DNA of 64,000 bases from Escherichia coli. Lineage in GTDB: Bacteria > Pseudomonadota > Gammaproteobacteria > Enterobacterales > Enterobacteriaceae. Shown piece by piece: positions 55,911 through 57,842 of the stretch. Under the pieces are notes generated by a model, which was not told where the DNA came from, searched no databases, and was given only the letters and a program-made list of their open reading frames with translations. The DNA lies in NCBI RefSeq assembly GCF_009931435.1, contig NZ_CP043414.1. One strand, given 5' to 3'. Numbering within the stretch: the first letter of the stretch is position 1; every line of letters starts with the position of its first letter. A program made the position numbers and the translations under genes.

Positions 55911-57842
55911 TCAAATGGGGCGGATACTTTCTTCATCCAGCTCCGCATCGAAGAACCGACGCAGGGTCTGAATATTATTATCCGCAATAATGGACTCGCG
56001 CGCCTGCGCAAGTTTTTCTTCGTATATCGCCTGACGCCATTCCAGCGGCGTGCGCACCGCGGGATTATCATCTTCAACGATAGTCAGTTCAACCGTTGAA
56101 CCTTTTAACGTGCTCAACGCTTCAGCCAGTTTTTGCTGTGCACCGCGGTTGTTTAAATGCCGCTGAGAGGAGCGCAAATGCAGGCATATTGCGTTGTCGC
56201 TCTCCTCTTTCCAGGCATTTAACGCCACCTGTTCGACCAGTTTTGGTAGCGAAAGTTGGCTCACCTGTGCCGCCCAAGGATCGCGCTCAATGGCTTCTGC
56301 CGCCAGCTTTGCCGCCAGTTCCGGCGTTTTTTCATGTTCCAGCGCTTTTTTCAGCGCCTTCGGCGTGGCGACCACTTCTTTTTGCTGCATCACTGGAGTG
56401 GTCGCCTTCCAGCGATACGCTTCTTTTTTGGCTGGTGCTTTTTCCAGCGCCGATGGCACCGGACGCGCCTGAACGCGATCGGTGACCGAAGCCAGTCTTT
56501 CCAGCGCAGCGTTATTCACCGGCCGCGCGCGGGTAGCGGCTGCCGGTTCACTCTTTTTTGCTTTGGTTGCTCCCTGTGCGCGCTGCAGTTGTTGGCGCGC
56601 CGCCAGCACCTGGCTGGTGGTTTCTGAGAGCGGTACAGTCGGTGCCTGCTGCGGAGCTGATTGCGGTTGCGGCGGCACCTGGGTTGGCGTCATTACTGCC
56701 GTTGGCGCGACGGGCGCAAAAGACTGGCGTGGCACTTCTGGCTCAGGCAGCGGCATACGCGGATGAAACGCCAGTGCGCGCAACAGCGTCATCTCAACGC
56801 CCATGCGGCGGTCCGGCGCATACGGTAATTCTTTGCGACCAATCAACAGCGTTTGATAGTAAAGCTGAATATCCGTCGGCGGTATGGTGCGCGCCAGTTC
56901 ACGCATCCGCAGCTCGATGGCGGCCATGTCGTTGCCCAGCGCAGCAGGGGAAAGTTGCACCATTGCAATGCGGTGCAACAGGCCGAGCATTTCTACCAGC
57001 AACGCTTCCCACTCAATACCACGAGCGGCGGCTTCATTAATCAGCGACATTACACGCTCGCCGTTGGCTTCAACCATCGCTTCAACCAGCGACAGCGCCT
57101 GATCGTCGTCAAGCGTACCCAGCATCGCACTGACCGCCTGGGTTGAAACCTGGCCGTCACCGCTGGCAATTGCCTGGTCGGTTAAACTTAGGGCATCTCG
57201 CAAGCTGCCTTCAGCGGCGCGCGCCAGCAGTTGCAGCGCCCGCGGCTCGTGAGCGATATGTTCTTCGTTGAGGATGTGCTCAAGCTGATGGCGAATTTGC
57301 TCGACATCCAGCGCCTTGAGATGAAATTGCAGGCAGCGTGACAAAATCGTCACCGGCAATTTCTGCGGATCGGTCGTCGCCAGCAGAAACTTGACGTGCT
57401 CCGGCGGTTCTTCAAGGGTTTTTAACAGTGCGTTAAAGCTGTGGCGCGACAGCATATGCACTTCGTCGATCAGATAAACTTTAAAACGACCACGCGCTGG
57501 CGCGTACTGGACGTTATCCAGCAGGTCGCGGGTATCTTCGACTTTGGTGCGCGAGGCGGCGTCGATTTCAATCAGATCGACAAAGCGCCCCTGCTCAATT
57601 TCACGACAGTTATCGCACACGCCGCACGGCGTCGCGGTAATGCCGGTTTCGCAGTTTAGCCCCTTCGCCAGCAGTCGGGCGATAGAGGTTTTTCCGACGC
57701 CACGGGTGCCGGAAAAAAGATAAGCATGATGAATACGCCCTAACGACAAGCCGTTCGCCAGTGCGGTCAGCACATGTTCCTGGCCGACGACGTCAGCAAA
57801 GGTTTGTGGGCGCCATTTTCGGGCTAAGACCTGATAACTCAT
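55911..57842 (-). CDS. dnaX: DNA polymerase III subunits tau/gamma
   Basis: 643-aa ORF MSYQVLARKWRPQTFADVVGQEHVLTALANGL..., Walker A GTRGVGKTS. Confidence 0.95.
   Translation of the reverse strand: MSYQVLARKWRPQTFADVVGQEHVLTALANGLSLGRIHHAYLFSGTRGVGKTSIARLLAKGLNCETGITATPCGVCDNCREIEQGRFVDLIEIDAASRTKVEDTRDLLDNVQYAPARGRFKVYLIDEVHMLSRHSFNALLKTLEEPPEHVKFLLATTDPQKLPVTILSRCLQFHLKALDVEQIRHQLEHILNEEHIAHEPRALQLLARAAEGSLRDALSLTDQAIASGDGQVSTQAVSAMLGTLDDDQALSLVEAMVEANGERVMSLINEAAARGIEWEALLVEMLGLLHRIAMVQLSPAALGNDMAAIELRMRELARTIPPTDIQLYYQTLLIGRKELPYAPDRRMGVEMTLLRALAFHPRMPLPEPEVPRQSFAPVAPTAVMTPTQVPPQPQSAPQQAPTVPLSETTSQVLAARQQLQRAQGATKAKKSEPAAATRARPVNNAALERLASVTDRVQARPVPSALEKAPAKKEAYRWKATTPVMQQKEVVATPKALKKALEHEKTPELAAKLAAEAIERDPWAAQVSQLSLPKLVEQVALNAWKEESDNAICLHLRSSQRHLNNRGAQQKLAEALSTLKGSTVELTIVEDDNPAVRTPLEWRQAIYEEKLAQARESIIADNNIQTLRRFFDAELDEESIRPI
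56553..56559 (-). other. dnaX: dnaX programmed -1 frameshift site (gamma subunit)
   Basis: The minus strand reads GCA AAA AAG AGT GAA CCG GCA GCC GCT ACC CGC (protein ...AKKSEP...). The A AAA AAG heptamer is followed by a GC-rich stem, and the -1 frame gives AAA AAA GAG TGA, i.e. ...KKE-stop, as known for gamma. Confidence 0.8.

What the first reader, a model, noticed from the sequence alone, without database searches (positions are those of the whole stretch)
56553..56559. dnaX tau/gamma frameshift signal intact
The A AAA AAG heptamer plus downstream GC-rich stem is present on the minus strand, and the -1 frame terminates after Lys-Lys-Glu. This is a textbook feature, recorded for completeness and as an internal control on strand/frame assignment.
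Basis: partly seen in the sequence, partly recalled or inferred. Interest (0 to 1): 0.15.

Follow-up and report, generated by a model that had tools for sequence, protein, structure and literature searches.

The report
dnaX tau/gamma frameshift signal, intact

Summary
AAAAAAG lies at window 56553-56559 on the minus strand. It sits inside a 643-codon ORF (55911-57842, minus) in the slippery register A AAA AAG, covering the last base of codon 428 and codons 429-430. The ORF is dnaX: 638/643 residues match K-12 tau, and it hits the NCBIfam equivalog at 980 bits. The -1 frame reads Lys-Lys-Glu-UGA, which predicts a 431-aa gamma. AGGGAG lies 10 nt upstream. A G+C-rich bulged hairpin starts 5 nt downstream (56518-56547, about -17 to -19 kcal/mol). 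Rfam RF00382 (DnaX frameshifting element) matches 56514-56578 full length at 94.6 bits against a gathering score of 35 (E 2e-19). The sequence from AGGGAG through the hairpin is identical to K-12, although the gene as a whole differs at 3.1% of bases. RefSeq annotates the same element in essentially every complete E. coli genome. In 76 Enterobacterales dnaX loci the register is the same. All but one of their 56 distinct downstream sequences keep the hairpin, whose closing pair switches between A-U and G-C. Gamma production in this strain was not measured; it is inferred from identity to the tested K-12 signal. The feature is already known, of low interest, and a valid control for strand and frame.

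The parts
55911..57842 (-). dnaX 0-frame ORF, 643 codons plus stop: tau subunit of DNA polymerase III
   Evidence: ORF list and translation. 638/643 identical to K-12 tau with no gaps. NCBIfam NF005942 equivalog at 980 bits against a cutoff of 613. Pfam domains: delta2/AAA 20-178, lid 182-230, gamma domain III 232-358, tau domain IV 417-498, tau domain V 500-640. Matches PDB tau and gamma chains.
56548..57842 (-). Predicted gamma reading frame: codons 1-430 in the 0 frame, then a -1 shift, GAG (Glu), and UGA stop at 56550-56548. The product is 431 aa ending ...ATKAKKE.
   Evidence: K-12 RefSeq annotates the equivalent joined CDS as DNA polymerase III subunit gamma. A 431-residue chain in PDB entry 8giy aligns to query residues 1-430.
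56570..56575 (-). Internal Shine-Dalgarno-like AGGGAG, 10 nt 5' of the heptamer; the upstream stimulator
   Evidence: Sequence. Positions 4-9 of the Rfam alignment. Identical in K-12. The role of AGGGAG is described in PMC5389563.
56553..56559 (-). Slippery heptamer A AAA AAG (last base of codon 428, then Lys429 and Lys430)
56518..56547 (-). Stimulatory hairpin ACCGGC-A-GCCGC-UACCC-GCG-C-GC-G-GCCGGU: 11 bp with bulges. It starts 5 nt after the heptamer, or 6 nt if the closing A-U pair is not counted.
   Evidence: Structure line of the Rfam model. MFE folds of -16.9 to -19.1 kcal/mol. A hairpin with the same lower stem is kept in all but one of 56 distinct downstream sequences from Enterobacterales dnaX loci.
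56514..56578 (-). Full extent of the Rfam RF00382 DnaX ribosomal frameshifting element
   Evidence: RefSeq annotates the same 65 nt as 'DnaX frameshifting element' in a strain with an identical dnaX region.

Best explanation
This is the canonical programmed -1 ribosomal frameshift cassette of Escherichia coli dnaX. Ribosomes translating dnaX reach A AAA AAG with tRNA-Lys in the P and A sites. The hairpin 5-6 nt downstream sits at the mRNA entrance and hinders translocation. The AGGGAG 10 nt upstream pairs with the 16S rRNA anti-Shine-Dalgarno sequence. About half of the ribosomes slip back one base, read GAG (Glu), and stop at UGA. They release gamma (431 aa, domains I-III). The remainder continue in frame to make tau (643 aa), which carries the DnaB-binding domain IV and the alpha-binding domain V. 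Shown here: all sequence components, their spacing and register, the identity of the host gene, and conservation. Inferred from published work on the identical K-12 sequence: the slippage mechanism, the efficiency, and the actual production of gamma.
For: The heptamer is in the X XXY YYZ register at codons 428-430 of a 643-codon ORF. The -1 frame reads KKE then stop, giving a 431-aa product. Rfam RF00382 scores 94.6 bits against a gathering score of 35, E 2.2e-19, model 1-65/65, with no non-canonical pairs flagged. The hairpin is the MFE and centroid structure in three different contexts. From AGGGAG onward, 97 aligned bases are identical to K-12 MG1655, while the gene as a whole differs at 60 of 1932 bases. 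K-12 RefSeq carries a joined gamma CDS at the same place. The host protein is DnaX by NCBIfam, Pfam, PDB and 99% identity to K-12 tau. The shift point at residue 430 falls after domain III (232-358) and at the start of tau domain IV (417-498). The gene context is syntenic with K-12: apt-dnaX-ybaB-recR-htpG. 5423 of 5426 complete E. coli genomes hold the 65-nt element in one copy, and 5372 of them are at least 99% identical over the aligned part. By contrast, only 12 genomes are at least 99% identical over the whole 2.4-kb gene region. In 76 Enterobacterales loci, picked only by AGGGAG-N10-AAAAAAGAGTGA, the heptamer has the same register in a long ORF. All but one of their 56 distinct downstream sequences fold a hairpin with the lower stem at the same offset. 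The closing pair is A-U in 35, G-C in 18 and A-C in 2. One Mixta sequence has the compensated core CCGAC/GUCGG, and L056 has a compensated GC-to-AU change in the upper stem. Literature: three signals (heptamer, SD, hairpin), 50-80% efficiency, and mutating any of them lowers frameshifting (PMC5389563); 50% of ribosomes shift and terminate one codon later (PMC5009743).
Against: Nothing contradicts it. There are four limits. First, no expression data exist for this strain. Second, folding z-scores are modest in this G+C-rich coding region: -0.60 for 96 nt, -1.55 for 65 nt and -2.33 for 39 nt. Thermodynamics alone would therefore not single out the hairpin. Third, among the 39 closest distinct sequences the six lower-stem pairs never vary, so they neither support nor oppose pairing. 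Three upper-stem pairs fail in 12-14 sequences because the Enterobacter-type upper stem pairs in a different register. Fourth, the stem also encodes protein (E-P-A-A-A-T-R-A-R-P-V), so part of its conservation may be constraint on the protein.
Confidence: 0.97

Rival explanations
1. The heptamer is an incidental Lys-Lys codon pair in an ordinary gene, and no recoding occurs here.
For: AAAAAAG alone is not significantly enriched in the window: 16 against 8.9 expected. Two other copies inside dnaX are clearly incidental. Hairpin z-scores are modest.
Against: All three signals, their exact spacing and the immediate -1 stop occur together, giving a full-length covariance-model hit at E 2e-19. The sequence is identical to the experimentally characterised K-12 cassette. 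It is conserved across Enterobacterales with compensated stem changes.
Confidence: 0.01
2. Gamma arises by transcriptional slippage of RNA polymerase on the A run, as in Thermus thermophilus dnaX, rather than by ribosomal slippage.
For: The site contains a homopolymeric A run. Transcriptional slippage is a documented alternative route to gamma in another bacterium (PMC5009743).
Against: The run is only 6 A. The review describes bacterial slippage on runs of 9 A or T. The conserved downstream hairpin and upstream SD at ribosome-scale spacing are translational stimulators. Mutating the identical K-12 cassette to G AAG AAG, or deleting the hairpin or SD, reduces frameshifting in purified translation systems that use pre-made mRNA.
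Confidence: 0.01
3. The short subunit is produced by proteolysis of tau, as in Caulobacter crescentus, and the frameshift cassette is vestigial.
For: Proteolytic generation of gamma exists in another bacterium (PMC5009743).
Against: The cassette is perfectly conserved in a lineage whose dnaX has otherwise diverged 3.1% from K-12. It is also conserved across 5423 E. coli genomes. That pattern is not expected of a vestigial element. The K-12 sequence is shown to frameshift.
Confidence: 0.01

Closest known systems
E. coli K-12 dnaX programmed -1 ribosomal frameshift element (Rfam RF00382; tau/gamma)
   Same: Same gene, same codon positions (428-430), same heptamer, same AGGGAG at -10, same hairpin sequence and spacing, same -1 codon (GAG) and stop (UGA), and the same 431-aa and 643-aa products.
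   Different: There are only flanking substitutions outside the functional signals. Two bases immediately 5' of CAGGGAG differ (GUG to GCA, Val422Ala), with a few synonymous changes further upstream. Five amino-acid differences are scattered in tau.
dnaX frameshift elements of other Enterobacterales (Citrobacter, Enterobacter, Kosakonia, Pantoea, Erwinia, Serratia, Mixta)
   Same: AGGGAG-N10-A AAA AAG-AGUGA, followed by a CCGGC/GCCGG-based hairpin at the same offset, in the same register of a dnaX-length ORF.
   Different: The upper stem and loop are remodelled in other genera (GCGCC...GCGC types with loops of 3-8 nt). The closing pair is G-C in the Pantoea/Erwinia group. The window has the Escherichia/Citrobacter-type upper stem.
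IS-element and viral -1 frameshift cassettes (e.g. IS911, HIV gag-pol)
   Same: The general logic is shared: an X XXY YYZ slippery site plus a downstream RNA structure. Many IS elements also use an upstream SD (PMC5009743).
   Different: Those produce a C-terminally extended fusion, usually at lower efficiency. Here the shifted frame stops after one codon, so frameshifting yields the shorter product at roughly 1:1.

Membership tests
dnaX -1 programmed ribosomal frameshift element (RF00382) | Slippery heptamer A AAA AAG in X XXY YYZ register relative to the 0 frame | tested here: met
   The first A is the third base of codon 428. The site is 56553-56559 on the minus strand.
dnaX -1 programmed ribosomal frameshift element (RF00382) | Host ORF is dnaX, with clamp-loader domains I-III upstream and tau domains IV-V downstream of the site | tested here: met
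   NCBIfam NF005942 at 980 bits. Pfam domain order. 99% identity to K-12 tau. PDB tau and gamma chains.
dnaX -1 programmed ribosomal frameshift element (RF00382) | Stable stem-loop 5-6 nt 3' of the heptamer | tested here: met
   Hairpin 56518-56547, -16.9 to -19.1 kcal/mol, is the MFE and centroid fold. It matches the Rfam consensus structure with no non-canonical pairs flagged.
dnaX -1 programmed ribosomal frameshift element (RF00382) | Shine-Dalgarno-like AGGGAG 10 nt 5' of the heptamer | tested here: met
   AGGGAG at 56575-56570, with 10 nt (56569-56560) before the heptamer.
dnaX -1 programmed ribosomal frameshift element (RF00382) | The -1 frame terminates immediately (one Glu codon, then UGA), giving gamma of 431 aa | tested here: met
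   KKE then stop. Computed product is 431 aa.
dnaX -1 programmed ribosomal frameshift element (RF00382) | Covariance-model score at or above Rfam's gathering score | tested here: met
   94.6 bits against 35, E 2.2e-19, full length.
dnaX -1 programmed ribosomal frameshift element (RF00382) | Stem supported by compensatory change across relatives | tested here: inconclusive
   Across 55 distinct Enterobacterales sequences with the canonical core arms, the closing pair is A-U in 35, G-C in 18 and A-C in 2. One core pair is compensated in Mixta. Within the 39 closest sequences, 7 of 11 pairs never vary and only one cell shows a double change. The sequences were selected by a pattern, and phylogeny was not controlled.
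dnaX -1 programmed ribosomal frameshift element (RF00382) | About 50% of ribosomes shift in vivo, so tau and gamma are both made | not testable with these tools
   Known for the identical K-12 sequence (PMC5389563, PMC5009743). Not measured for this strain.
dnaX -1 programmed ribosomal frameshift element (RF00382) | A single tRNA-Lys (mnm5s2UUU) decodes both AAA and AAG, which favours re-pairing on AAA | not testable with these tools
   No tRNA genes in the window. This is a property of E. coli according to PMC5009743.

The most novel reading that the evidence does not exclude
The only lineage-specific differences near the cassette are two substitutions directly 5' of CAGGGAG (GUG to GCA, Val422Ala) and several synonymous changes further upstream. 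They might alter local mRNA structure or the extent of SD-anti-SD pairing, and so shift the tau:gamma ratio in this rare dnaX allele. Only 12 of 5424 genomes are at least 99% identical over the 2.4-kb dnaX region. Nothing in the evidence suggests this. The changed bases lie outside AGGGAG, the heptamer and the hairpin.
Probability: 0.03. Interest if true: 0.15.

Novelty: already known. Interest (0 to 1): 0.04.

Why it matters
It matters only as a control. It confirms that the window is Escherichia coli chromosome, read on the minus strand across apt-dnaX-ybaB-recR-htpG. For annotation, dnaX in this window should carry two products, tau and gamma, not one.

Tried and rejected
1. Heptamer enrichment as evidence. 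It is not informative: 16 observed against 8.9 expected, and 2 of 100 shuffles reach 16.

2. Thermodynamic significance of the hairpin in a 96-nt context. The z-score is -0.60, not significant, because the surrounding coding sequence is itself G+C-rich. The isolated 39-nt segment gives z = -2.33.

3. A formal covariation count on the 39 indel-free relatives. The lower stem is invariant, and the upper stem of Enterobacter-type sequences pairs in a different register. The count therefore adds little. The wider set was analysed with a regular expression and per-sequence folding instead.

4. The genome-wide pattern scan also returned about 35 Collinsella contigs and some scattered singletons. The Collinsella matches are one conserved site where AGGGAG precedes a GTG by 5 nt. 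That looks like an ordinary ribosome-binding site with a start codon, and it lacks the dnaX-type CCGGC/GCCGG hairpin. They were set aside as unrelated.

5. Transcriptional slippage and proteolytic routes to gamma were considered and rejected (see the rival explanations).

6. The expensive protein database searches and structure prediction were not used. Identity to K-12 dnaX made them unnecessary.

Full report
**The observation**

The minus strand of window 56400-56700 reads ...CGCACAGGGAGCAACCAAAGCAAAAAAGAGTGAACCGGCAGCCGCTACCCGCGCGCGGCCGGTGAATAAC.... AAAAAAG occupies 56559 down to 56553 on the minus strand. It lies inside the only long ORF there, 55911-57842(-), which has 643 codons. The first A is gene base 1284, the third base of codon 428. 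The 0 frame therefore reads GCA AAA AAG AGU GAA, which is the A AAA AAG register.

Reading from 56559 gives K K E stop: AAA AAA GAG UGA, with the stop at 56550-56548. A ribosome that slips back one base after Lys430 adds one Glu and terminates, giving a 431-aa product ending ...ATKAKKE. The +1 frame would add 11 residues.

The heptamer by itself is not beyond chance. The window has 16 copies against 8.9 expected. Two more copies inside dnaX, at 56423-56429 and 56345-56351, are in the AAA AAA G register.

**The host gene**

The ORF is DnaX. It matches NCBIfam equivalog NF005942 at 980 bits against a cutoff of 613. The Pfam domains are:
- delta2/AAA, residues 20-178
- lid, 182-230
- gamma domain III, 232-358
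- tau domain IV (DnaB-binding), 417-498
- tau domain V (alpha-binding), 500-640

It is 638/643 identical to K-12 tau without gaps. It matches solved tau and gamma chains, including a 431-residue chain in 8giy that aligns to query residues 1-430.

The shift point at residue 430 removes almost all of domain IV and all of domain V. That matches the known difference between gamma and tau.

The gene order priC-ybaN-apt-dnaX-ybaB-recR-htpG is that of K-12. K-12 RefSeq annotates a joined gamma CDS at the same place.

**The signal**

Rfam RF00382 (DnaX ribosomal frameshifting element) matches 56578 down to 56514 on the minus strand. The match covers model positions 1-65 of 65, scores 94.6 bits against a gathering score of 35, and has E 2.2e-19 with no non-canonical pair flagged. 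The anatomy in window coordinates, minus strand, is:
- AGGGAG at 56575-56570
- a 10-nt spacer
- the heptamer at 56559-56553
- the spacer AGUGA, which contains the -1 stop
- the hairpin ACCGGC/A/GCCGC/UACCC/GCG/C/GC/G/GCCGGU at 56547-56518

The hairpin is the MFE and centroid structure in the 29-, 39-, 65- and 96-nt contexts, at -16.9 to -19.1 kcal/mol for the hairpin segments. Its z-scores are modest (-0.6 to -2.3) because the surrounding coding sequence is G+C-rich. Thermodynamics alone is therefore weak evidence, and the covariance model and conservation carry the argument.

**Conservation**

Aligned with K-12 MG1655, every base from CAGGGAG to the end of the 141-nt alignment is identical. 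The differences are confined to the bases 5' of CAGGGAG. The gene as a whole differs from K-12 at 60 of 1932 bases, which is 96.9% identity.

5424 of 5426 complete E. coli genomes carry the gene region once, but only 12 are at least 99% identical to this allele. By contrast, 5423 genomes carry the 65-nt element, and 5372 are at least 99% identical over the aligned part. RefSeq labels it 'DnaX frameshifting element'.

A scan of one genome per species for AGGGAG-N10-AAAAAAGAGTGA leaves the hairpin region free. It returned 76 usable Enterobacterales loci with 60 distinct sequences over the 66-nt cassette, plus unrelated matches. In all 76 the heptamer is in the same register of a long ORF. There are about 425-510 open codons upstream and 209-216 downstream wherever the locus is not cut.

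Over the 48 nt after the heptamer there are 56 distinct sequences. All but one (L055) fold a hairpin with the lower stem at the same offset. The CCGGC/GCCGG core is invariant except for one compensated CCGAC/GUCGG in a Mixta species. The closing pair is A-U in 35 distinct sequences, G-C in 18 and A-C in 2. The upper stem is remodelled between genera but still pairs.

On the 39 indel-free closest sequences the formal count adds little: 7 of 11 pairs never vary and there is one double change. The comparative support for the stem is therefore real but modest, and it is not controlled for phylogeny.

**Mechanism**

This part is established knowledge, not tested here. The E. coli dnaX cassette has three signals: the slippery sequence, the SD and the hairpin. 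Its efficiency is about 50-80%. Mutating the heptamer to G AAG AAG drops frameshifting to 2%, deleting the hairpin drops it to 20%, and mutating AGGGAG drops it to 50% in one in-vitro system. The hairpin impedes EF-G-catalysed translocation of the two tRNA-Lys (PMC5389563).

In vivo, 50% of ribosomes shift to -1 and terminate one codon later. The single tRNA-Lys pairs better with AAA than with AAG (PMC5009743). Because the window's cassette is identical to the K-12 one, the same behaviour is inferred.

**Rivals**

An incidental heptamer, transcriptional slippage (the run is only 6 A, and the review describes runs of 9), and proteolytic production of gamma (the Caulobacter route) are each given about 1%.

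**Verdict**

The feature is already known and of very low interest. It is useful as a check that the window is E. coli chromosome read on the minus strand at this point.

**Seen in passing**
- A 6,923-codon adhesin ORF with type I secretion genes next to it.
- The TolC-family gene beside that adhesin ORF carries a premature stop.
- A DUF6896 two-gene cassette between ybaK and ushA.
- A 1.3-kb segment present in the nearest genome but absent here.
- Oddities among the fetched relatives.

Details are in the list of things noticed in passing.

Noticed in passing
window 12562-33333 (-), with 9224-10399 (-) and 10396-12558 (-): A 6,923-codon ORF with long internal repeats at about 72-75% identity. 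In the colinear strain 2020CK-00188 it is annotated 'BapA-related adhesin SiiEA'. It is followed by genes for a type I secretion ABC permease/ATPase and a HlyD-family adaptor, and the block lies between ybaT and cueR.
   Followed up: partly
window 33442-34797 (-): The TolC-family outer-membrane gene just upstream of the giant adhesin ORF has an in-frame premature stop at codon 335. The ORF splits into 334 aa and 103 aa. The orthologue in strain 2020CK-00188 is intact at 451 aa and 98.7% identical. The secretion system for the adhesin may therefore lack its own outer-membrane component in this strain.
   Followed up: yes
window 42036-43394 (+): A 1.36-kb two-gene cassette lies between ybaK and ushA: a 266-aa DUF6896 protein and a following ORF with no Pfam match. 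It is absent from the otherwise colinear nearest genome. It is present at 95-99% identity in 774 of 5426 complete E. coli genomes, always on the chromosome. No flanking repeats suggesting an IS element were found.
   Followed up: partly
window about 8813-8820: Strain 2020CK-00188 has about 1.3 kb more here than the window, next to cueR. The extra DNA holds a 'hypothetical protein' gene (L004 21845-23068). This is an indel difference between close relatives.
   Followed up: no
window 55700-58100: This dnaX allele is rare. Only 12 of 5424 E. coli genomes are at least 99% identical over the 2.4-kb region, and K-12 is 96.9% identical over the gene. The rest of the window is 97-99% identical to the best-matching genome. 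The strain or this segment may belong to a divergent lineage.
   Followed up: no
window 41350-41433 (-) and 3241-3318 (-): Rfam gathering-level hits to sroB (ChiX sRNA, 82 bits) near ybaK, and to naRNA4 (a REP/BIME-type element, 84 bits). Both are expected E. coli features.
   Followed up: no
window 56423-56429 (-) and 56345-56351 (-): Two further AAAAAAG heptamers lie inside dnaX. Both are in the AAA AAA G register, and both are also present in K-12. They are not in the slippery register.
   Followed up: yes
L055 (Candidatus Pantoea persica), about 3006-3033 (-): This dnaX keeps AGGGAG-N10-A AAA AAG-AGUGA, but the canonical CCGGC...GCCGG hairpin is replaced (GAGCCGGCAGCGUCGGCUAACUCC...). It is the only Enterobacterales locus of the set without the standard stem. 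An alternative fold is predicted.
   Followed up: no
L026, L070, L105 (Serratia): The closing pair of the dnaX hairpin is an A-C mismatch (ACCGGC...GCCGGC). The stem is effectively one pair shorter than in Escherichia or Pantoea.
   Followed up: no
L005, L006, L015 and about 32 other Collinsella contigs: The search pattern AGGGAG-N10-AAAAAAGAGTGA hits one conserved site in many Collinsella genomes (GAAGGGAGAAUCUGUGCCAAAAAAGAGUGAGAGCACGG). It looks like a ribosome-binding site followed by a GUG start, and it lacks the dnaX-type CCGGC/GCCGG hairpin. It is not a dnaX element. The gene was not identified.
   Followed up: partly
L068 and L084: A contig titled Chryseobacterium sp. 18061 carries a Citrobacter-type dnaX element. 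A contig titled Enterobacter ludwigii carries a Pantoea-type element. These are probably contaminated or mislabelled assemblies in the public collection.
   Followed up: no
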